From: an uncultured Lachnospiraceae bacterium | GTDB lineage: Bacteria > Bacillota > Clostridia > Lachnospirales > Lachnospiraceae | Length of the DNA: 64,000 bases | Assembly: GCA_947564645.1 (NCBI GenBank) | Contig: CANOCU010000003.1 | Span: 3,934 to 67,933, forward strand | Reading direction: 5' to 3' | Shown: positions 431-45,878 of the stretch, piece after piece | Numbering within the stretch: the first letter of the stretch is position 1 | Layout of the letters: every line of letters begins with the position of its first letter | Made by a program: the position numbers and the translations under genes | The notes under the pieces: model-generated | Told to the model about the DNA's origin: nothing | What the model saw: the letters and a program-made list of their open reading frames with translations, nothing else | Databases searched by the model: none

Positions 431-1369
431 TTATTCCAGTACAAGCTTCGCCGCGCCGTAGATGCCCGCGTCGTTGCCCAGTGTGGCAAGTACGAATTTC
501 GTGTCCCTGCAGCCATGGAATACTGTGCGCTCGAAAGGCGGACGAATATAGTCAAACAACACCTCCCCGGCCTTGGAAACGCCGCCGCCGATCACAAATA
601 CTTCCGGATTGACAACGCCCGCGATCACGCCCAGGCCCTTGCCCAGGTATTCTCCGAACTGTTTCGCCACCTCGATAGCCAGCTCGTCTCCGGCCTTGAC
701 CGCATCGAATACCGTCTTGGCGGACACTTCGCCCTGCCGCAGTACGCTGTCCTTATCACAGGCTTTCAGCTTCCTGTTGGCCAGTCTGGTAATACCGGTA
801 GCGGAAGCATATTCTTCCAGGCAGCCGAAATTGCCGCAGCCGCATTCTTCCGTCTCATTGTCCTCCACATGGATATGACCGATCTCACCGCCCGAACCAT
901 TGCACCCATTCACGACTCTGCCGTTGATGATAATACCGCCGCCGACACCGGTTCCCAACGTAACCGCCACCAGAGACTTATATCCCTGGCCGCCGCCCTT
1001 CCACATCTCTCCCAGCGCAGCCACGTTGGCATCGTTGCCGCCTTCCACATGCATACCGCCGAGAAGATCCGACAGCTCTTTCTTCAGATCCATCTCAGGC
1101 CAGCCCAGATTCACTGCCTCATGGATGATACCGTTATCGTCCACCGGACCGGGCGCCCCGATGCCCACGCCTGCCACGTCGTCTTTCGCGATGGCCTTCT
1201 CTTCCATCTTAGCCTGTACGCTGGCCGCCACATCGGGCAGGATCTGAACGCCGCCGTTCTCCGTCCTGGTGGGGATCTCCCACTTATCCAACAGATTGCC
1301 GCTGATGTCAAACAGCCCCAGCTTCACGGTCGTTCCGCCTACATCCACTCCGAATACATAATTTGCCAT
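431..1369 (-). CDS. glcK: ROK-family glucokinase
   Basis: GVDVGGT ATP-binding motif, NDANVAALGE, TLGTGVGGG, and the Zn motif GEIGH...CGCGNFGCLE. Confidence 0.9.
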   Translation of the reverse strand: MANYVFGVDVGGTTVKLGLFDISGNLLDKWEIPTRTENGGVQILPDVAASVQAKMEEKAIAKDDVAGVGIGAPGPVDDNGIIHEAVNLGWPEMDLKKELSDLLGGMHVEGGNDANVAALGEMWKGGGQGYKSLVAVTLGTGVGGGIIINGRVVNGCNGSGGEIGHIHVEDNETEECGCGNFGCLEEYASATGITRLANRKLKACDKDSVLRQGEVSAKTVFDAVKAGDELAIEVAKQFGEYLGKGLGVIAGVVNPEVFVIGGGVSKAGEVLFDYIRPPFERTVFHGCRDTKFVLATLGNDAGIYGAAKLVLE

Positions 1370-1438
1370 GTTTCTTGTCCCCCTTGTTTGTAGTTTGTAT
1401 TTTGATGGTTTCTATTGTTAGCGATATTAGAAATCCCG

Positions 1439-2380
1439 CTAATTCTGTTCTTCTTCCCGTCTGGCAGCCAGAGACTTCTGTACGCGTTTATACAGCTCCT
1501 GTGCCGCGTTATAACCCATTTTCTTCTGACGATGGTTTACCGCCGCCGACTCGCAGATGATGGCCAGATTCCGGCCTGGCCTGATGGGGATGTTGTGACA
1601 CACCACCTTGTTGCCCAGATACTCGGTATACTCCTCCTCCAGACCGAGACGGTCATATTCTTTGTCCTTATCCCAGTCCTCCAAGCGGATGACCAGATCA
1701 ATATTCTGCGTATCCCTGACACTGGACGCACCGAACAGCGATTTCACATCCACAATACCGATCCCCCGCAGTTCGATAAAGTGCTTCGTGATATCCGGCG
1801 CGCTGCCCACCAGCGTATCCTCGCTGACTCTTCGGATCTCCACCACATCGTCCGTGACAAGACGATGTCCTCTCTTGATCAGCTCCAGAGCCGCCTCCGA
1901 TTTACCGATGCCGCTCTCGCCCGTGATCAGCACGCCCTCGCCGTACACATCCACCAGAACGCCGTGTACGGAAATGCAGGGCGCCAGCTTCACATTCAGC
2001 CAGCGGATCACTTCCGCCATGCAGGCCGAAGTGGCTTTCTTACTCATCAGGATCGGCACGCCGTATTTCACCGCAATCTCCCGAAACAACGGATTGGGCT
2101 GTAACTCCCTGCAGAACAGGACGCCTGGAATGGGGTTGTTGAGCAGCTTCTCGAAGATCTCCCGCTGCCGCTCCTCTTCCATGCAGTTCATATAAGAATA
2201 TTCCACAAATCCCACGATCTGCAGCCTTGTCGTCTCAAAATGTTCGAAATACCCCGCGATCTGCAAAGCCGGCCTGTTGATATCCGGCTGGATCACGCTG
2301 ATCTTGGAAATATCAATCTCCGGCGTCAGATTCTCCCATTTGAATTTCTCGATAACCTTCGTCAAACTGATGCTCGCCAT
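1439..2380 (-). CDS. hprK: HPr(Ser) kinase/phosphorylase
   Basis: INRPALQIAG, HGVLVDVYGEGVLITGESGIGKSE, LVTDD, HFIELRGIGI. Start refined to MASISL (ATG 2380) after an AAGGAGAGG RBS; the ORF track starts at 2422. Confidence 0.95.
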   Translation of the reverse strand: MASISLTKVIEKFKWENLTPEIDISKISVIQPDINRPALQIAGYFEHFETTRLQIVGFVEYSYMNCMEEERQREIFEKLLNNPIPGVLFCRELQPNPLFREIAVKYGVPILMSKKATSACMAEVIRWLNVKLAPCISVHGVLVDVYGEGVLITGESGIGKSEAALELIKRGHRLVTDDVVEIRRVSEDTLVGSAPDITKHFIELRGIGIVDVKSLFGASSVRDTQNIDLVIRLEDWDKDKEYDRLGLEEEYTEYLGNKVVCHNIPIRPGRNLAIICESAAVNHRQKKMGYNAAQELYKRVQKSLAARREEEQN

Positions 2381-2486
2381 AACCCTCTCCTTACCTCCCG
2401 TATCCTGTCTTGCCGTTCTCATACCGATTCCGTACCGCTCACATGCGCCGAACGGGAATGCCTCGATACAGATGCGGCTTCCTGTC

Positions 2487-3824
2487 CTATTTTACCATAC
2501 AAACAGAAGGTTCGCAATGAACAGAATCTGCAAGGCAGAATGCCGCATACAAGGGCAGCGCTTCCACAGAGTCCGTGCAGTAGAAATTTTCCTCCGAAAA
2601 CCGGATCGCCCGGTCCGGCTTATATTGCCGTATAAAAATGCCAAGGCTCCTTGATCTGTTATGCGTACCACGCTTGCTCTCGATCGCCGTCACATTTCCG
2701 TTGATCTGGATTACAAAATCCAGTTCTGCCTGACTGCTCTCAGGCGCCCAATAATATATGCCGTACCCCATCGATACCAATTGCACGGCCAGATAGTTCT
2801 CTGTCACGGCTCCCATAAAGGTATTCCCCTCCCCCAAAAGGATCGTCTGCTGCGACAAGCCCGATTGCGCCACCAAAAGCCCCACATCACCCATATATAA
2901 TTTAAAGGAAGAGAGATCTTCATAGACAGAGATCGGCTCCTCCCCATGCAGGATCCTCCTGCATTTGAGGACAATACCAGACTGCTCCAGCCACTCGATG
3001 GATGCGCCGAACATGGAACTGCTGGCTCCTCTCTGCACCACCTTATACTGAAATTTCCTGTTGTCCTTGGCCAACTGGGCAGGAATGGAGTGAAAAGCCG
3101 CCCGGATCCTGACCGTTTCCTCCGCGGACGCATACTTCGCCATATCCGCCACATAATTGCCCAGAATTTCATGCTGCACGTTTGGCACAAGCACCAGCTT
3201 GCCCCGGTTCACATACTCATTGACTACGGCCGGCATACCACCCACGATCAGATAATAATGATATAACTCCAATGCCTTCTCATGCAAAGCGGCCACCAAC
3301 GGACTGTGTTCCTTATAACAGGTCCTTATCTCCCCGGCCAGTGCCTGCTCTCCCACCGCCCACAGAAATTCTTCAAAGTCCAATGGATACAAAGACAGGC
3401 TCTTCACCTTTCCTACCGGAAAAGAATACTGCTGCCTGTTGATCGCCACGCCCAACAGGCTTCCGGCCGATACGATGTGATATTCCGGCGCCTGTTCACA
3501 AAAGTATTTCAAACTTGTCAGTGCTCTCTCACAAGACTGGATCTCATCCAGAAATAAGAGCGTTCTCCCGGGATGGATCTCTTCTCCGACGATCGCCTCC
3601 AACAGTGTAAGAATCCGTCCCGGCACAATATCACTCTCAAAGACAGACGCCACGGAACGATTCGTCTCCAGATTGACATAGACCACGTTCTCATAATTCT
3701 TTTCTCCGAAATCCATGAGAATAAACGTCTTGCCTACCTGCCTCGCGCCATAGAGCAGCAGAGGCATACGCCCCGCACTTTCCTTTTTCCATTGCAGCAA
3801 CTGATCTTCTATTTTTCTCCGCAT
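2487..3824 (-). CDS. AAA+ ATPase with C-terminal DUF4143-type domain
   Basis: Walker A GARQVGKT, Walker B LFLDEIQ, SAGSLLG, GGMPAVV, KLYMGDVGLL, and a C-terminal ELDFVI...AIESK nuclease-like motif. Confidence 0.85.
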   Translation of the reverse strand: MRRKIEDQLLQWKKESAGRMPLLLYGARQVGKTFILMDFGEKNYENVVYVNLETNRSVASVFESDIVPGRILTLLEAIVGEEIHPGRTLLFLDEIQSCERALTSLKYFCEQAPEYHIVSAGSLLGVAINRQQYSFPVGKVKSLSLYPLDFEEFLWAVGEQALAGEIRTCYKEHSPLVAALHEKALELYHYYLIVGGMPAVVNEYVNRGKLVLVPNVQHEILGNYVADMAKYASAEETVRIRAAFHSIPAQLAKDNRKFQYKVVQRGASSSMFGASIEWLEQSGIVLKCRRILHGEEPISVYEDLSSFKLYMGDVGLLVAQSGLSQQTILLGEGNTFMGAVTENYLAVQLVSMGYGIYYWAPESSQAELDFVIQINGNVTAIESKRGTHNRSRSLGIFIRQYKPDRAIRFSEENFYCTDSVEALPLYAAFCLADSVHCEPSVCMVK

Positions 3825-3971
3825 GATATCACCTCACAGCACAGGTTGCTTGATTCTTCATCCCCTTTTATCTTGATGATATCATCGTATGAACTTTAAG
3901 TCAACTTTATTCATCCCATACATTATTTTTTTCGACTTAATTATCATTGCACAATCTCTTTTACAAAGCTC

Positions 3972-5864
3972 TCACGACATTGGCTGTGTCTCCTCCTGCT
4001 CTCCGTCCGCCCGGAAGAACGCATGGATCTGTCGTCCGATATGCTCCGGTATCTCCGGCACCTCGCACAGCTGTTCCACCGACGCTTCCCGAACCTCATT
4101 GATGGAACCGAAATGCCGCATCAACGCCTTGCGTCTGGCCGGCCCCACGCCGGGAATCTCGTCCAGCACGGACTTCACCTGCGCCTTGGAGCGCAGCGAC
4201 CGGTGGTATTCGATGGCAAAGCGATGTGCTTCATCCTGAATCCGGGTGATCAGCTTAAACCCTTCCGAGTGGGTATCGATGGGAATCTCCACATTCCGGT
4301 AATAGAGTCCCCTGGTACGATGATTGTCGTCCTTGACCATACCGCAGACAGGAATATCCAGATGCAGCTCTTCCAACACCTGCAGCGCGATATTGACCTG
4401 TCCCCGTCCGCCGTCCATCATCAGGAGATCCGGAAACTTCGTGAAGCTTCCAAGCTCATGCCCGATCTCCTTCCTGTCCAGTTCTTCCTTCTCCTCCATC
4501 CCGTGCAGGAACCGTCTGGTCAGCACCTCCTTCATGCAGGCATAATCATCCGGCCCGGTCACTGACTGAATGCGGAATTTGCGATAATCGCTGCGCTTGG
4601 CCTTCCCCTTCTCGAAGACCACCATAGAACCGACATTGGCAAAACCGCTGATATTGGAGATGTCAAAGGCCTCCATGCGGCTCACGTGTTCCAGCTTAAG
4701 CAGGGCCGCGATCTCCTTCACTGCGCCGATGGTCCGCCCCTCCTCCCGCTTGATCCGCTCCTTATCCTGGCTGAGTACCAGATGTGCGTTCTGGGCCGCA
4801 AGTTCCACAAGCTTCTCCTTGGCCCCCTTCTTCGGCACCCGCAGATAGACCCGGCTGCCCTTGCGGCTGCTGAGCCACTTTTCCAGGATCTCCAGATCCG
4901 CGATCTCCTCCTGCAGCATCAGTTCCCGCGGGATAAACGGCGTGCCCGCGTAAAACTGTTTCACGAAATCAAGCAGGATCTGCGCCGTGTCATACCCTTC
5001 CACATGGGTCATATAGAAGTGTTCCCTGCCGATCAGCTTGCCGTCCCGCACGAAAAAGACCTGCACCACGGCATCCGTCTCGTCCTTGGCCAGTGCCAGG
5101 ATATCCTTGTCCTCCCCGTTGCTGTCCGTGATCTTCTGCTTCTGTGCCACACTTTTTACACTGTTATAGAGGTCTCTGTAGCGGATGGCCTCCTCGAACT
5201 CCAGGTTCCCGGAAGCCTGCGCCATTTTATCTTCCAGATCTTTTAACAGCGGATTATAATTACCGTTCAGGAAATCCAGCGCCTGCTCCACACGCTCCCG
5301 ATACGCCTCCTTGCCGATATATCCCTGGCAGGGCGCCAGGCACTGCTTGATATGATAATTCAGGCAGGGACGTTCCAGACCGATATCCCGTGGAAGCTTT
5401 CGATTGCATGTCTTCAACTGATACAGCTTGTTCATCAGGTCGATCGTATCCTTCACCGCCGCCGCGCTGGTATACGGGCCGAAATACTTCGAGCGGTCTT
5501 TTTTCATCTCTCTGGAAAAAAGGATCCGCGGGTATTCTTCCCCCATGGTGACCTTGATATAAGGGTACGTCTTGTCGTCCTTGAGCATCGTGTTGTATTT
5601 CGGGCTGTACTCCTTAATCAGGTTATTCTCCAGGACCAGCGCTTCCAGTTCGGAATCGGTCACGATATATTCAAAACGGGCGATCTGCTCCACCATCTTA
5701 TCGATCTGCGGCCCCCTCCCCACGATCTTGCGGAAATAGGAGCGCACCCGGCTGTGCAGGTTGACCGCCTTTCCCACATAGATAATGGTATCCCCCGCAT
5801 CATGCATCAGATAAACGCCGGGAGAATTCGGTAATTTCTTCAGTTCTTCTTCAAAATTAAACAT
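3972..5864 (-). CDS. uvrC: Excinuclease ABC subunit C
   Basis: GIY-YIG N-terminus (PGVYLM...YVGKA), UVR domain, EAFDISN RNaseH-like domain, [10 protein letters not shown], and C-terminal HhH ([10 protein letters not shown]). Confidence 0.97.
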
Positions 5865-41539: not shown

Positions 41540-42457
41540 TCAATGACTTAAGCCCTTCATTTTTATTTCAAATTCCGAAATGCTGGTTGCTGACGCTGCG
41601 CATCTGAGCCATCTGCCCAAAATATTTAAGTCCTTTTCCTGACTAATCTGCCGCATAAGTTTTGCAGGGATTTTTCCCAATTCTGCCAACAACTCCAAAA
41701 TATCTTCTATTTTCCCCTCAATTTTTCCCTCTATTTTCCCCTCAATTTTTCCTTCTGCTTTTCCCTCCTTTTTGCCTTCTTGCCTAATTCTGTCTACTAT
41801 CTCGCACATGATGTTTATCCCCTCCTTCTGCGCCTTATAAAAATTGACACGCTCGACGATTCGCGGAAACTCTTCCGTACAATAGAACGGTTCCGATTTT
41901 TTAATATACCGCAGCAGTTCATTCATTTTCTGAGAGCCTGTCGTATACTTCAGATTAAAGTATTTTTCACACACCCCATTCTCCAGGTTAGCTGCCGCAT
42001 CCGTCTTTCCTTCTACCGTTCTTCTAATTTGGTAAAATCCCTTCTTACCGCCGATGAAATCCGATTTGGTAATATACAGAATTGTCACGGAAGGCAGTTC
42101 ATCATACTCTTTCCCTTTATCCAATATGCTCATATCAATGCAGGATGTGTAATATCTGGTCCTTCGAAACGGTTCCGCTTCTTTGTACATCTGCAGCTCT
42201 ACATTGATCAGACCTCCGGTTACCGTCTCCGCCAGAATATCAAGCTGCACCGAATGGCTTATCAGGTTCCTGATCACATACTGCGTCTTCACATCCTTAA
42301 GCTGCAGGCCGGGATCCTGCATCAGAATCCGACATAGTTCCTGGCAAGCCGTCAGATCCTCAAACACTTTGCCGGCAAAAAGATCGCTTGTCAGGTTAAA
42401 CTCCTGTATCCGCTCCCGCTTCTGCTCCAATGTTTCTGTCATTGCTATTCCATCCAT
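41540..42457 (-). CDS. Rpn-family (PD-(D/E)XK) recombination-promoting nuclease, copy 1
   Basis: SDLFAGKVF, VQLDILA...INVELQ, RTRYY; C-terminal (EGKI)n repeats. Confidence 0.88.
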   Translation of the reverse strand: MDGIAMTETLEQKRERIQEFNLTSDLFAGKVFEDLTACQELCRILMQDPGLQLKDVKTQYVIRNLISHSVQLDILAETVTGGLINVELQMYKEAEPFRRTRYYTSCIDMSILDKGKEYDELPSVTILYITKSDFIGGKKGFYQIRRTVEGKTDAAANLENGVCEKYFNLKYTTGSQKMNELLRYIKKSEPFYCTEEFPRIVERVNFYKAQKEGINIMCEIVDRIRQEGKKEGKAEGKIEGKIEGKIEGKIEDILELLAELGKIPAKLMRQISQEKDLNILGRWLRCAASATSISEFEIKMKGLSH

Positions 42458-42610
42458 TGTAAACCTCCCTTATTAATTTACTGCAGGAGTCTGTTACAAT
42501 GTATGAAAAAGAGAAATTGATCCCTGATCCTTCTCTGGAATCAAACCCAATATTTTATGATAACAGTCCTGCCAAACAAATGTGAATCTTCGGCAGAACT
42601 GCCTGACTGC
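42033..42610. repeat. 578-bp direct repeat, copy 1 (5' half of rpn plus upstream region)
   Basis: Matches 45135-45712 at a constant 3102-bp offset; only 2 mismatches seen by eye. Confidence 0.92.
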
Positions 42611-42784
42611 ACTCATGATGCCGCCTATAAAACCTCATAAAACAGATGTATTTAGATTTTATGCTTCAAAACGTGCACATTAAAGAATCAAGATTTGTTT
42701 AATGAAAGAAGTATGTGAAACTGCACTGATTTACCGCAGTTTCACATACCGATTATATCAAATTACTTATGCGACAACTAGCTA

Positions 42785-43843
42785 TTATCTTTCTCTGTCA
42801 CATAATACAATTTCGGGTCTGATCGGACACCCACCCATACAATGTTTCCGGTTATCGCAGTTCGGACACGCCGTTCTGAATCTATCCCTAAAATCCTCGA
42901 ATTTCTTACTGTTCCAAGCCTCTTCGATTGTATGCGTTTTTAAATCCACCGCCCATCTCTGCTCCTGGTTGTCAAAGCTGCATGGCAGCATTTTCATATC
43001 TGCTGTGACATAGGCAGACCATCTTGCTCCTTCACATGTGTCCAAACTGTCTGTGTCAATAATACCCGGATGATTCAGTAGTGCTGGCACCGTACATGAA
43101 TCAAAACCTATCTTATAGCCGGAAGCTCCCGAACTGATATACTGTATCAGGTGGATAAACTCCTGATTATCCTGCCCAATCACATTGTCAGGAGAACCCA
43201 GTCCTACCGGCTTATGCAGTAAAAAGATAATGGCATTGATCCCCTCAGGAAAACTGTGTTCCTCCAACCTTTCCAAAGCCTCTGCAACAGTATTCTTACT
43301 TAGAACATAGTGAATGTTCGTTTTAACCCCGAATGCTGTCAGCAACTCTATTGCATGCAGTGTGTATTCACTTCTATACCAACTGACTGCAACCGCTCCG
43401 CAATAGTTACGGCATAATTTCGCAATACTTTCTGTCATACCCAGACCGGAAGTGGTAAAGTTGGCTACAATCCCCGACTCTTTACATACTGCAAGGATCT
43501 CCTCGAAATCTTCATGCTGATCCGGATCCCCACATCCTCCCAGTGCAAACTGATAGGTCCTGCCTTTACACTGCCCGGCGATCGTTTTAAAATCCTGCAG
43601 ACACATATTAGGCCGATCAGAATGCAGGCCATCCTGATAACACTCAACACCTGCCTTCATACACAACCCGCTCTTCCCATGCCTGCAATGTCCCATAATA
43701 CCCACATCCAGCAGTTCAGGAAAGGAACTCATAAAAGGGTCTTCCCCGGTATCTTTTCCTGAGATAATTATACCCGTGCGCAGATACTTCCCGGTTTTTT
43801 CATCAAAAAAGGTCATAAACTCTTTTTCTCTTCGTATTTTCAT
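42785..43843 (-). CDS. Radical SAM/SPASM-domain protein with non-canonical cluster motif
   Basis: GIMGHC-x7-C-x6-CYQ, ALGGCGDP, NFTTSG, and a SPASM-like CEGA...LPC...CPNC...CMGGC...C. Confidence 0.82.
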   Translation of the reverse strand: MKIRREKEFMTFFDEKTGKYLRTGIIISGKDTGEDPFMSSFPELLDVGIMGHCRHGKSGLCMKAGVECYQDGLHSDRPNMCLQDFKTIAGQCKGRTYQFALGGCGDPDQHEDFEEILAVCKESGIVANFTTSGLGMTESIAKLCRNYCGAVAVSWYRSEYTLHAIELLTAFGVKTNIHYVLSKNTVAEALERLEEHSFPEGINAIIFLLHKPVGLGSPDNVIGQDNQEFIHLIQYISSGASGYKIGFDSCTVPALLNHPGIIDTDSLDTCEGARWSAYVTADMKMLPCSFDNQEQRWAVDLKTHTIEEAWNSKKFEDFRDRFRTACPNCDNRKHCMGGCPIRPEIVLCDRER

Positions 43844-43851
43844 AGCCGTCT

Positions 43852-44226
43852 TTAATAGTCTAAGGATCCATCGATCGCTTCAAAGTTGTCACAGTCTGCT
43901 TCTTCCAGCTTTTTCCATAGATCAATAAACATTTCTGCCAGATCATACTCACATTCTTCAAAAATCACCTCACCATGATAAATGGCTTTCTCTTCCTTCA
44001 ATGCCTCCCTTATTTTATCCTGATCATCCTCATCAATATAATGATCTTCGAATGCCTTCTGAATTGTATCTTCATCGCTATCAGGCGTCAGCATCTTTCT
44101 GCCAAGCATATTTTCTTCAACATACTCAATAATTGCCTGCTTTTGTTTCTCTGTCAGTTCTCCTTTTCTTGCTAAAATGAAACTGCTGCTGCTCGAATTT
44201 GTCACAAAATCCGTCCTTACCTTCAT
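43852..44226 (-). CDS. Acidic protein with N-terminal MKVRTDFVTNSSSSSF poly-Ser motif
   Basis: Strong RBS AAGGAGG; 124 aa; ends 8 bp before the radical SAM gene. Confidence 0.85.
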   Translation of the reverse strand: MKVRTDFVTNSSSSSFILARKGELTEKQKQAIIEYVEENMLGRKMLTPDSDEDTIQKAFEDHYIDEDDQDKIREALKEEKAIYHGEVIFEECEYDLAEMFIDLWKKLEEADCDNFEAIDGSLDY

Positions 44227-44296
44227 GGTATATCTCCTCCTTCATGGGCCGTTATTTGGTTCTGATAAGAAGATACCACATTTTCAACTAGCTTTC

Positions 44297-44315
44297 ATTG
44301 GACTGTTAGTCCAAT
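44297..44315. promoter_or_regulatory. Perfect palindrome, candidate operator
   Basis: ATTGGACT-GTT-AGTCCAAT overlapping the HTH stop codon, next to an ATGAAA-17-TATCTT promoter with extended -10 TG (minus strand, 44270-44298). Confidence 0.6.
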
Positions 44316-44665
44316 CTGCTGCCATTATTTTGTATCATTGTCCAATAAAGGAAGAGCCTTTTTCCCGTAACGGAAATTTCCTCCTCTTCATAGGATGATT
44401 CGGGTACAATCAGCTCGTCCATGTGAACTTTCAATAGTCTGCTCAACACATACAAATGATCCAACGAAGGTAAAATGCGCCCCTTAAACCATCTGTATAT
44501 TGGCTGCGGACAAGATAACCGCAGTTTCTCCTGTATCTCTTTCACAGAATAACCCGCTGCAAAAATTTGATCCTTCAACCTCATTCCGGTTTTTACCATA
44601 TCGATATGCTGATAATCCTCTCTGTTCACAACTGCCGTCTTCCCCATTCTATCATCCCGTATCAT
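44306..44665 (-). CDS. Xre/Cro-type HTH transcriptional regulator
   Basis: SVKEIQEKLRLSCPQPIYRWFKGRILPSLDHLYVLSRLL; true start may be ATG 44647. Confidence 0.82.
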   Translation of the reverse strand: MIRDDRMGKTAVVNREDYQHIDMVKTGMRLKDQIFAAGYSVKEIQEKLRLSCPQPIYRWFKGRILPSLDHLYVLSRLLKVHMDELIVPESSYEEEEISVTGKRLFLYWTMIQNNGSRLD

Positions 44666-44704
44666 TCTGCCATGACCACTTCCATGCCAAAGCTGCTCTT
44701 TGCT

Positions 44705-45559
44705 TCACATCCTTCTCTCAAACTCCAAGATACTGGATGCAGACGCTGCACATCTGAGCCATCTGCCCAAGACCTTCAGATCCGTTTCCTGCCTAATCCG
44801 CTGTGCGATCCTTGTCGGAATTTTACCCAGTTCTTCCAGCAGATCCAAAATGTCTTCTATTTTTCCTTCTATTTTTCCTTCCTTCTTAATCCTGTCCGCT
44901 ATTTCACACATAATATCTACACCTTCCCTTTGAATCTTATAGTAGTTGACTCTCTCCACAATTCGCGGAAATAATTTCGTCTGATAGTATGGGGTTGAAT
45001 TTTCCAAATATTGCAGCAACTCATTGATTTCCTTATACCTTGTCGGATACTTCAAATTGAAGTACTTCTCGTACAATCCATTATCCAAACCCGTTCCTTC
45101 CGGATTCTTTCTGTCTGTTTTTCTTCTGATTTGATAAAATCCCTTCTTACCGCCGATGAAATCCGATTTGGTAATATACAGGATTGTCACGGAAGGCAGT
45201 TCATAATACTCTTTCCCTTTATCCAATATGCTCATATCAATGCAGGATGTGTAATATCTGGTCCTTCGAAACGGTTCCGCTTCTTTGTACATCTGCAGCT
45301 CTACATTGATCAGACCTCCGGTTACCGTCTCCGCCAGAATATCAAGCTGCACCGAATGGCTTATCAGGTTCCTGATCACATACTGCGTCTTCACATCCTT
45401 AAGCTGCAGGCCGGGATCCTGCATCAGAATCCGACATAGTTCCTGGCAAGCCGTCAGATCCTCAAACACTTTGCCGGCAAAAAGATCGCTTGTCAGGTTA
45501 AACTCCTGTATCCGCTCCCGCTTCTGCTCCAATGTTTCTGTCATTGCTATTCCATCCAT
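44705..45559 (-). CDS. Rpn-family nuclease, copy 2
   Basis: N-terminal ~140 aa identical to copy 1 except D/Y; C-terminal half diverged. Confidence 0.88.
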   Translation of the reverse strand: MDGIAMTETLEQKRERIQEFNLTSDLFAGKVFEDLTACQELCRILMQDPGLQLKDVKTQYVIRNLISHSVQLDILAETVTGGLINVELQMYKEAEPFRRTRYYTSCIDMSILDKGKEYYELPSVTILYITKSDFIGGKKGFYQIRRKTDRKNPEGTGLDNGLYEKYFNLKYPTRYKEINELLQYLENSTPYYQTKLFPRIVERVNYYKIQREGVDIMCEIADRIKKEGKIEGKIEDILDLLEELGKIPTRIAQRIRQETDLKVLGRWLRCAASASSILEFERRM

Positions 45560-45712
45560 TGTAAACCTCCCTTATTAATTTACTGCAGGAGTCTGTTACA
45601 ATGTATGAAAAAGAGAAATTGATCCCTGATCCTTCTCTGGAATCAAACCCAATATTTTATGATAACAGTCCTGCCAAACAAATGTGAATCTTCGGCAGAA
45701 CTGCCTGACTGC
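45135..45712. repeat. 578-bp direct repeat, copy 2
   Basis: See 42033-42610. Confidence 0.92.
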
Positions 45713-45878
45713 GCCGGTAATGTCCCTCGAAAAGGTAGCATGAAAAAGTGCCTTCAAATATTTATGCACCGCACGCATTTAAGAATCAAGATTTGTTTTC
45801 ATAAAAGAAGTATATCATATAACTACTTTTACCGCAATAGATTTCGCAAATAAATTTAAACGTTTTTTCGTTCTCAAA

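What the first reader, a model, noticed from the sequence alone, without database searches (positions are those of the whole stretch)
42785..43843. Non-canonical CX7CX6C cluster motif in the radical SAM enzyme
Where CX3CX2C is expected, the protein reads GIMGH-C-RHGKSGL-C-MKAGVE-C-YQ. The flanking context (terminal CY, downstream GG motif ALGGCGDP, TTSG, SPASM cysteines) fits the rSAM barrel. Alternative spacings are known in a few rSAM enzymes (e.g. HmdB CX5CX2C, some QueE CX14CX2C), but I do not recognise this one. Motif-based annotation could miss it.
Basis: partly seen in the sequence, partly recalled or inferred. Interest (0 to 1): 0.6.

Follow-up and report, generated by a model that had tools for sequence, protein, structure and literature searches.

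The report
Radical SAM enzyme with stretched cluster loop
This gut-bacterial iron-sulfur "radical SAM" enzyme carries its three cluster-binding cysteines in a stretched CX7CX6C loop instead of the textbook CX3CX2C; relatives show every intermediate spacing, so it is a real, conserved variant that standard annotation misses, not an error.

Summary
ORF 42785-43843 (-) encodes a 352-aa protein with C53-x7-C61-x6-C68 (nt 43640-43687).

- **Fold:** AlphaFold2 (pLDDT 95.6) gives a radical-SAM barrel plus SPASM domain. The best match is SuiB (Z 26.5).
- **Graded spacings:** relatives carry CX3CX2C, CX4/5CX2C, CX5CX3C, CX5CX6C, CX7CX6C and CX7CX8C at the same aligned place, behind the same beta-1 strand (GIMGHC). 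The other barrel motifs are shared.
- **Ancestry:** expanded loops sit in one supported clade nested among canonical forms.
- **Selection on the insert:** it is conserved in 206 distinct loops (H55, G56, G59, G65).
- **Co-loss:** the four relatives without a full triad have also lost barrel residues invariant elsewhere (G102, G105, P107, T130 or S154; three lost G102) but keep SPASM cysteines.
- **Annotation:** Pfam Radical_SAM detects the five canonical relatives tested but none of the five expanded-loop members tested. Sources name them only "SPASM domain-containing".

The most likely reading is a working SAM-binding [4Fe-4S] site on a remodelled loop. No biochemistry exists.

Canonical and expanded forms alike sit beside proteins with an invariant N-terminal MKxRxDFVTNSSSSSF tail, the probable client. 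Some canonical relatives lie next to Avs2-like STAND genes, as in the published KpAvs2-Avap1-Avap2 operon.

This scan had already noted the motif and the enzyme-tail pairing on other DNA.

Verdict: a new variant of a known kind, of moderate interest.

The parts
42785..43843 (-). Gene for the 352-aa radical SAM/SPASM enzyme
   Evidence: ORF. AF2 model has pLDDT 95.6 and pTM 0.93. VIA-align gives SuiB Z 26.5, SkfB 23.9, anSME 21.6 and PqqE 20.7. Pfam SPASM scores 29.5 bits against a cut-off of 21.5.
43640..43687 (-). Expanded cluster loop C53-x7-C61-x6-C68, directly after beta-1 (residues 44-50)
   Evidence: Translation. The Cys are invariant in A1. They align with the CX3CX2C of relatives. The inserted residues are conserved in 206 distinct loops.
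43523..43546 (-). ALGGCGDP, the 'GGE'-type SAM-binding motif on beta-2, with one inserted residue (C104) compared with the ALGG-GEP/GNP of canonical relatives
   Evidence: Class consensus. Per-sequence table.
42800..43096 (-). SPASM region with eight Cys (C250, C270, C288, C326, C329, C335, C339, C348), enough for two auxiliary [4Fe-4S] clusters
   Evidence: PF13186 and TIGR04085 both score above their cut-offs. The Cys columns are kept in nearly all 53 diverse relatives.
43852..44226 (-). 124-aa partner protein; probable client of the enzyme
   Evidence: A gene encoding the tag lies beside the rSAM gene in 77 of 80 genome loci. AF2 predicts a folded alpha/beta body at 17-124 and a disordered tail at 1-11. 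No Pfam or NCBIfam family and no PDB fold match.
44179..44226 (-). N-terminal 16-residue tag MKVRTDFVTNSSSSSF of the partner
   Evidence: M1, K2, D6, N10, S11-13 and S15 are invariant in 37 partners. The same tag heads proteins with unrelated bodies of 99-477 aa.
44306..44665 (-). Xre-type HTH regulator gene upstream of the pair
   Evidence: Pfam HTH_3. Homologues sit beside the pair in 32 of 80 loci.

Best explanation
C53, C61 and C68 are the three ligands of the SAM-binding [4Fe-4S] cluster of a genuine radical SAM/SPASM enzyme. They sit on the usual loop between beta-1 and alpha-1, but that loop gained four residues in each spacer. Its ancestors were canonical CX3CX2C enzymes of the same family.

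The inserted residues (consensus C-x-H-G-x-x-G-L-C-x-x-[AS]-G-[VI]-[EQ]-C-Y-Q) form two short helical turns over the cluster. A one-residue insertion in the neighbouring GG motif (GG-C-GDP) goes with them, so the SAM and cluster pocket is remodelled but not lost.

The enzyme most likely still cleaves SAM to a 5'-deoxyadenosyl radical. It would use that radical, with two auxiliary SPASM clusters, to modify the invariant N-terminal MKxRxDFVTNSSSSSF tail of the protein encoded next to it.

Shown here: the sequence, its conservation, the homology to canonical forms, the predicted fold and the gene linkage. Inferred: cluster binding, SAM cleavage, and the tail being the substrate.
For: 1. **Position and fold.** The triad lies directly after beta-1 (44-50) and before alpha-1 (82-92) of a high-confidence model (pLDDT 95.6). 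The model matches SuiB (Z 26.5, rmsd 3.1, 312 aligned), SkfB, anSME, CteB, ChlB and PqqE.
2. **Graded series at one aligned site.**
   - In 53 diverse relatives the spacings run CX3CX2C, CX4CX2C, CX5CX2C, CX5CX3C, CX7CX6C and CX7CX8C.
   - Viral contigs show the identical GIMGHC context with CX3CX2C (31-44% identity), CX5CX3C (45-51%), CX5CX6C (40%) and CX7CX6C (57-64%).
3. **Tree.** All expanded loops fall in one clade (SH-aLRT 97) nested among canonical members.
4. **Shared barrel motifs.** Canonical and expanded classes share ALGG(x)G.P..H, PNYTT.G, yCGAvAvS, tN.H and fL..KP.G.
5. **Co-loss.** The four relatives without a full triad (P0124, P0127, P0138, P0164) have also lost barrel residues that are nearly invariant elsewhere. 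Three lost G102 and G105, three lost T130 and S154, and P0138 lost P107, T130 and S154. All keep C250, C270 and C288, and three keep all eight SPASM Cys.
6. **Selection on the insert.** In 206 distinct loops, H55 is kept in 201, G56 in 205, G59 in 200 and G65 in 200.
7. **Same partner.** Canonical and expanded enzymes have the same kind of tagged neighbour, which argues for one conserved function.
8. **Predicted contact.** Complex prediction of enzyme plus partner, with three 4Fe-4S clusters and SAM, returned 'weak support': score 0.51, best of three controls 0.00.
   - That mark was reached by 58 of 80 solved complexes and 2 of 110 mismatched pairs.
   - At 0.60 or under it was reached by only 7 of those 80 and by both mismatches that passed.
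   - The runs agree in at least 69% of contacts, and the partner's pLDDT is at least 53.
Against: - No biochemistry exists for any member.
- The aromatic residue that precedes Cys3 in canonical relatives (C-x-F/Y-C) is Glu or Gln here. From general radical SAM knowledge, that aromatic residue usually packs on the adenine of SAM.
- The GG motif carries an insertion, and Asp stands where canonical enzymes usually have Glu.
- Pfam Radical_SAM finds nothing at E <= 1.
- Conserved H55 and C104 could supply a fourth ligand, which would block SAM binding. C104 is not kept in all CX7CX6C members, though.
- The tree is a quick search rooted on a very long outgroup branch, and the order inside the expanded clade is unresolved.
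Confidence: 0.75

Rival explanations
1. The loop still binds an iron-sulfur cluster, but the enzyme no longer performs classical reductive SAM cleavage. A fourth ligand such as H55 or C104 completes the coordination, or the cluster serves only electron transfer or structure. The protein then works mainly through its SPASM clusters or as a binding protein for the tagged partner.
For: - The aromatic residue before Cys3 is lost, and the GG motif carries an inserted Cys.
- H55 is kept in 201 of 206 loops.
- Lineages exist that lost the triad and nearly invariant barrel residues (the GG motif in three of four) yet keep SPASM Cys. A SAM-independent role is therefore viable in this family.
Against: - Every other barrel motif is held as tightly as in canonical relatives.
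- C104 is replaced by Arg or Ala in several CX7CX6C members.
- The same tagged partner accompanies canonical and expanded enzymes.
- The triad-less forms are rare: 4 of 53 representatives.
Confidence: 0.17
2. The three cysteines do not bind an iron-sulfur cluster. They would be a zinc or disulfide structural element, or a coincidental Cys-rich insertion in a decayed pseudo-enzyme.
For: The spacing matches no established radical SAM motif. The RadicalSAM.org survey lists only CXnCX2C variants (PMC9477430). No paper in the held library uses CX7CX6C for a radical SAM enzyme.
Against: - Cys1 and Cys3 are positionally homologous to those of CX3CX2C relatives, with intermediates in between.
- The family is very large, with 4284 hits at E <= 0.001, and is under strong purifying selection.
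- Loss of the triad goes together with loss of nearly invariant barrel residues, the GG motif in three of the four cases.
Confidence: 0.05

Closest known systems
SPASM-type radical SAM peptide- and protein-modifying enzymes with solved structures: SuiB (5V1S), SkfB (6EFN), anSME (4K36-39), CteB (5WHY), ChlB (9GM3), PqqE (6C8V)
   Same: Predicted partial TIM barrel plus a C-terminal SPASM domain with eight Cys. The gene sits next to a probable peptide-like substrate. A short N-terminal beta region aligns with the start of SuiB.
   Different: Those enzymes use CX3CX2C (from general knowledge of these families; spacing not checked here), whereas this one has CX7CX6C. Sequence identity is only 11-19%. 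No NCBIfam equivalog comes near its cut-off; the best is 34 bits against 380. The substrate candidate is a tail on whole folded proteins, not a small RiPP precursor. The anSME target motif (C/S)-x-(P/A)-x-R is absent from the tag.
Known non-canonical radical SAM cluster motifs: the CXnCX2C families listed by RadicalSAM.org (n = 4-11; PMC9477430); HmdB CX5CX2C, QueE CX14CX2C and ThiC CX2CX4C
   Same: Three Cys on one loop, with altered spacing tolerated by the fold.
   Different: Every variant listed in PMC9477430 keeps the final CX2C. Here the second spacer also changes (x3, x6, x8) within a classical barrel. ThiC changes it too, but its active-site architecture is non-canonical (PMC4389238, abstract seen). 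This family also shows the intermediates side by side.
Avap1 (radical SAM) and Avap2, accessory proteins of the Klebsiella pneumoniae Avs2 anti-phage operon (Bechon et al. 2024, PMC11564622)
   Same: A radical SAM gene and a small protein of unknown function travel together. Canonical relatives of the window enzyme lie, with a tagged protein, directly downstream of a STAND NTPase. That NTPase carries SMEK_N and an Avs2-like NTPase domain (PADLOC Avs2 74 bits).
   Different: The window cassette has no STAND gene, only an Xre regulator. I could not obtain Avap1 or Avap2 sequences, so homology is untested. HMMER finds no DUF6375 (PF19902) similarity in the partner. The paper leaves the role of Avap1 open.

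Membership tests
Radical SAM superfamily | Three-Cys motif CX3CX2C on the loop after beta-1 | tested here: not met
   The spacing is CX7CX6C. The three Cys are nonetheless on the homologous loop and align with CX3CX2C in relatives.
Radical SAM superfamily | Partial (beta/alpha)6 TIM-barrel fold | tested here: met
   AF2 pLDDT 95.6. Foldseek E 5e-13 to SuiB. VIA-align Z 26.5-20.7 to six SPASM radical SAM enzymes. This rests on a predicted structure, not a solved one.
Radical SAM superfamily | Match to Pfam PF04055 above the gathering score | tested here: not met
   No PF04055 hit at E <= 1. Canonical relatives score 53-69 bits against a cut-off of 29.5.
Radical SAM superfamily | GGE-type SAM-binding motif on beta-2 and the other barrel motifs | tested here: inconclusive
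   ALGGCGDP is present but has one inserted residue, and Asp stands in place of Glu. The remaining motifs are shared with canonical relatives.
Radical SAM superfamily | [4Fe-4S]-dependent reductive cleavage of SAM | not testable with these tools
   Needs reconstitution, EPR and a 5'-dA assay.
SPASM subfamily | C-terminal seven- or eight-Cys domain including CX2CX5CX3C | tested here: met
   PF13186 scores 29.5 bits (cut-off 21.5) and TIGR04085 scores 29 bits (cut-off 27). C326-x2-C329-x5-C335-x3-C339, together with C250, C270, C288 and C348, read from the ORF translation.
Anaerobic sulfatase-maturating enzymes (anSME/AtsB) | Equivalog-level sequence match and a client with the (C/S)-x-(P/A)-x-R motif | tested here: not met
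   TIGR03942 scores 13 bits against a cut-off of 349. The tag MKxRxDFVTNSSSSSF has no such motif.
Avap1/Avap2 accessory pair of Avs2 | Encoded in an operon with an Avs2 STAND NTPase | tested here: not met
   The window has Rpn-family, Xre and transporter genes around the pair, and no STAND gene. Canonical relatives on Agrobacterium pAt, and probably in genome G259, do have an Avs2-like STAND upstream.
Avap1/Avap2 accessory pair of Avs2 | Sequence homology to Avap1 and to Avap2 (DUF6375-like) | tested here: inconclusive
   No Avap sequences were obtainable, as no supplements are held. HMMER with PF19902 finds nothing in four genomes or records, nor in 37 partners. The paper's link was by HHpred, which is more sensitive.

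The most novel reading that the evidence does not exclude
The stretched loop is not a neutral variant but a functional redesign of the radical SAM site. The conserved His and Gly residues of the insert, plus the inserted residue in the GG motif, would change how the cluster binds SAM or its reductant, or would form part of the docking surface for the Ser-rich tail. Under this reading the enzymes perform chemistry, or are controlled, in a way not seen in CX3CX2C enzymes. They would do so within a still undescribed protein-tagging system shared by gut phages and Avs2-type immune operons.
Probability: 0.15. Interest if true: 0.8.

Novelty: new variant of a known kind. Interest (0 to 1): 0.5.

Why it matters
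Every variant motif listed in the RadicalSAM.org survey keeps the final CX2C. Here a large natural family, with thousands of sequences in gut Clostridia and their phages, changes both spacers and keeps the intermediates alive. That gives enzymologists a ready-made series for asking how much the cluster loop can be remodelled while SAM chemistry survives.

There is also a practical point. Pfam Radical_SAM failed to recognise all five expanded-loop members tested here, and public sources name the close homologues only 'SPASM domain-containing protein'. Surveys that rely on PF04055 are therefore likely to undercount this branch. Béchon et al. (PMC11564622) used PF04055 to define Avap1 homologues, though through the more sensitive HHsearch.

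The enzyme also belongs to an uncharacterised enzyme-plus-tagged-protein module linked to phages and to Avs2-type immunity. Knowing that it is probably still a radical enzyme shapes the experiments needed to find out what the tag is for.

Tried and rejected
- Genomic context came from the search for related loci, the genome search and search_dna_similar instead.
- **Cys geometry.** Model coordinates are not exposed to scripts, so Cys-Cys distances could not be measured.
- **PADLOC.** No hit for the window enzyme or the partner above noise.
- **Literature.** No paper holds NSSSSSF or TNSSSSSF. CX7CX6C occurs only in a defensin paper. 'SMEK domain' has no occurrence in the held library.
- **Partner fold.** Foldseek found nothing at E <= 0.001. 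The best VIA wide-search Z was 4.4.
- **DUF6375 link.**
  - PF19902 gave no match in the window genome, two relatives' genomes or the Agrobacterium plasmid.
  - It gave no match in 37 partners at E <= 10.
  - No supplements of the Avs2 paper are held.
  - A plasmid search with the canonical enzyme found no Klebsiella record.
- **Viral scan.** The diverse alignment A2 was too variable for a viral scan, so A1 was used.
- **Rejected: misalignment or wrong frame.** The ORF start, length and whole sequence match thousands of homologues.
- **Rejected: anSME membership.** See the membership test.
- **Phage relatives.** The T4-like Klebsiella phage relatives (27% identity, CX7CX2C) have no tagged neighbour within 3 kb. 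I treat them as a more distant branch.

Full report
**Observation.** The window has a 352-aa ORF at 42785-43843 on the minus strand. Translating 43634-43708(-) gives DVGIMGHCRHGKSGLCMKAGVECYQ.

**What databases see.**
- Pfam reports only the SPASM domain (29.5 bits, cut-off 21.5) and no Radical_SAM hit at E <= 1.
- NCBIfam gives the generic SPASM domain model just above its cut-off. Radical-SAM maturase equivalogs match only weakly and partially, at best 34 bits against a cut-off of 380.
- The protein has 4284 homologues at E <= 0.001. The 120 best are at least 67% identical. Where they carry a name, it is almost always just "SPASM domain-containing protein".

**Fold.** AlphaFold2 with a 53-sequence alignment gives pLDDT 95.6 and pTM 0.93. 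Beta-1 spans 44-50, two short helical turns span 54-58 and 60-63, and alpha-1 spans 82-92. Foldseek and VIA-align place the model among SPASM radical SAM enzymes:

| Structure | Z |
|---|---|
| SuiB | 26.5 (rmsd 3.1, 312 residues aligned) |
| SkfB | 23.9 |
| anSME | 21.6 |
| CteB | 21.5 |
| ChlB | 21.2 |
| PqqE | 20.7 |

The triad therefore sits where the SAM cluster loop sits in this fold. I could not measure sulfur-sulfur distances, because model coordinates are not exposed.

**Homology of the triad to CX3CX2C.** An exhaustive HMMER search of 50%-identity representatives found 1595 relatives.
- In an alignment of 53 diverse full-length members, the site behind the conserved P-E-L-x-D-[IV]-x-I strand carries CX3CX2C in the distant members (about 30-40% identity, DISITNxCxxxCxFCY). 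Closer members carry CX4CX2C, CX5CX2C, CX5CX3C, CX7CX6C and one CX7CX8C.
- Among the 272 proteins retrieved, 150 are CX7CX6C, 24 are CX3CX2C and 8 are CX5CX3C, with a scatter of others.
- IMG/VR viral contigs make the point most cleanly. Behind the identical GIMGHC context they show four spacings:

| Spacing | Identity to the window protein |
|---|---|
| CX3CX2C | 31-44% |
| CX5CX3C | 45-51% |
| CX5CX6C | 40% |
| CX7CX6C | 57-64% |

- In a quick maximum-likelihood tree, all expanded-loop members fall in one clade (SH-aLRT 97) nested within a grade of canonical members. The root rests on a long outgroup branch and the order inside the clade is unresolved. I therefore claim only that the expansions are derived, not how many times each arose.

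**Is the site still functional?** Three observations bear on this.
1. The rest of the barrel is the same in canonical and expanded classes: ALGG(x)G.P..H, PNYTT.G, yCGAvAvS, tN.H, fL..KP.G and GfDsC, plus the SPASM cysteines.
2. The inserted residues are themselves constrained. In 206 distinct CX7CX6C loops the consensus is D[VI]GIMGHCxHGxxGLCxx[AS]G[VI][EQ]CYQxG. H55 is kept in 201, G56 in 205, G59 in 200 and G65 in 200.
3. Four representatives lack a complete triad: P0124, P0127, P0138 and P0164. All four have also lost barrel residues that are nearly invariant elsewhere. Three lost G102 and G105, three lost T130 and S154, and P0138 lost P107, T130 and S154. All keep C250, C270 and C288, and three keep all eight SPASM Cys. 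Losing the triad together with these barrel residues fits the triad and the SAM pocket forming one functional unit.

Some points argue for caution. The aromatic residue before Cys3 in canonical relatives is Glu or Gln here. The GG motif carries an extra residue (Cys104 in the close family, Arg or Ala in others). Nothing has been tested at the bench.

**Annotation.** All five canonical relatives tested pass Pfam Radical_SAM at 53-69 bits. Four CX7CX6C members (P0121, P0126, P0136, P0050) are not reported by it, nor is the window protein. A CX5CX3C member scores 19.3 bits, below the 29.5 cut-off.

**Context.**
- In 77 of 80 genome loci, one to four genes beside the enzyme encode proteins that start with MK[IV]RxDF[VI]TNSSSSS[FY]. 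The taxa are mainly Lachnospiraceae and Oscillospiraceae, with a few Selenomonadaceae, Synergistaceae and Erysipelotrichaceae.
- Most of these proteins are 124-aa homologues of the window's upstream gene. Others have unrelated bodies of 99-477 aa.
- In 37 partners, M1, K2, D6, N10, S11-13 and S15 are invariant.
- AlphaFold2 predicts a folded body at 17-124 and a disordered tail at 1-11. The body has no PDB match and no Pfam or NCBIfam family.
- Besides the pair, only an Xre regulator recurs, in 32 of 80 loci. Everything else around the pair varies and often looks mobile.
- Canonical CX3CX2C relatives have the same kind of neighbour, with the tag ending NSSSTSF. This holds in two other genomes of the phylum and on Agrobacterium plasmid pAt. 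The loop variation therefore lies inside one enzyme-client system.
- Complex prediction of enzyme and partner, with clusters and SAM, returned "weak support": score 0.51 against a best control of 0.00.
  - That mark was reached by 58 of 80 solved complexes and 2 of 110 mismatched pairs.
  - At 0.60 or under it was reached by only 7 of those 80 and by both mismatches that passed.
  - The runs agree in at least 69% of contacts, and the partner's pLDDT is at least 53.

**Link to known biology.**
- On pAt, the gene two places upstream of the tagged protein, with a 121-aa ORF between them, encodes an 888-aa protein with a SMEK_N domain and an Avs2-like STAND NTPase domain (Pfam 144 bits; PADLOC Avs2 74 bits).
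KpAvs2 of Klebsiella is encoded with Avap1, a radical SAM protein, and Avap2, a small protein with an HHpred hit to DUF6375.
- In that paper, Avap1 is needed against phage T2 but not SECphi18. Avap2 binds KpAvs2. The function of both is open.
- I could not obtain those sequences, and HMMER shows no DUF6375 signal in the partner. The link therefore rests on gene context only.
- The window cassette has no STAND gene. It lies in a low-GC stretch between two Rpn-family genes that share a 300-nt repeat at 97% identity.

**Comparison with known motifs.** The RadicalSAM.org survey lists CX4- to CX11-CX2C variants, and all of them keep the last CX2C (PMC9477430). No paper in the held library uses CX7CX6C for a radical SAM enzyme. 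ThiC changes the second spacer, but its active-site architecture is non-canonical (PMC4389238, abstract). A classical barrel with both spacers expanded, and with living intermediates, is not described in what I could search.

**Verdict.**
- The best reading (about 0.75) is a working SAM-binding cluster on a remodelled loop, in an enzyme that acts on the Ser-rich tail of its neighbour.
- The main rival (about 0.17) is a cluster that no longer cleaves SAM.
- This scan had already noted both the motif and the enzyme-tail pairing on other DNA.
- It is a new variant of a known kind, of moderate interest.

Noticed in passing
window 41540-45800: The HTH-partner-rSAM cassette lies between two Rpn-family (PDDEXK_2) genes in direct orientation. 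They share a 300-nt repeat at 97% identity (42004-42303 and 45106-45405), and a 23-nt repeat sits upstream of each. The stretch has 42-43% GC, against about 50-54% in the flanks. It may be a duplication or a recombination-mobilised island.
   Followed up: partly
P0124, P0127, P0138, P0164 (relatives): These look like pseudo-enzyme derivatives. They have lost the Cys triad, wholly or in part, together with barrel residues that are invariant elsewhere (G102, G105, P107, T130 or S154). All keep C250, C270 and C288, and three keep all eight SPASM cysteines.
   Followed up: partly
P0035, P0050, P0062, P0104 (relatives): These are about 540-aa forms of the CX7CX6C enzyme with a C-terminal extension of roughly 190 aa. 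The extension is conserved among P0035, P0050 and P0104, the three that were aligned. P0050, the only one scanned, has no Pfam or PADLOC match for it.
   Followed up: partly
L088 (Agrobacterium tumefaciens pAt, NZ_CP011248.1) 580-5032; also L084 and L085: Four-gene arrangement around a canonical relative: a STAND NTPase with SMEK_N and an Avs2-like NTPase domain, then a 121-aa protein, then a tagged 131-aa protein (MKLKMDFVSNSSSTSF), then a CX3CX2C radical SAM/SPASM enzyme. L084 and L085 show the same order, and their ~133-140-aa second protein looks similar by eye in one short motif (not tested by alignment).
   Followed up: partly
L087 (Klebsiella phage Miro, NC_041981.1) 2929-4083: T4-like Slopekvirus phages of Klebsiella, Enterobacter and Cronobacter (170 records) encode a distant relative. 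It is 27% identical over the full length and has a CX7CX2C motif (CNGPAGKLCGFC). No tagged gene lies within 3 kb.
   Followed up: partly
L096, L108, L126, L149 (IMG/VR contigs): The tag has 'dialects' in phages: MKIRKGFVTNSSSSSF (Asp replaced by Gly), MKIKLDFITNSSSEAF and MKIITDFITNSSSSVF. Up to six tagged genes occur per locus.
   Followed up: partly
window 43400-43402 (residue C148 of the enzyme): A further cysteine, in the beta-4 motif yCGAvAvS, is kept in nearly all canonical and expanded relatives. It lies outside both the triad and the SPASM domain, and its role is unknown.
   Followed up: no
window 43855-43875 (C-terminus of the partner): The 124-aa partners end in a conserved I-D-x-x-L-x-Y, with L122 invariant. 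This second conserved element lies far from the N-terminal tag.
   Followed up: no
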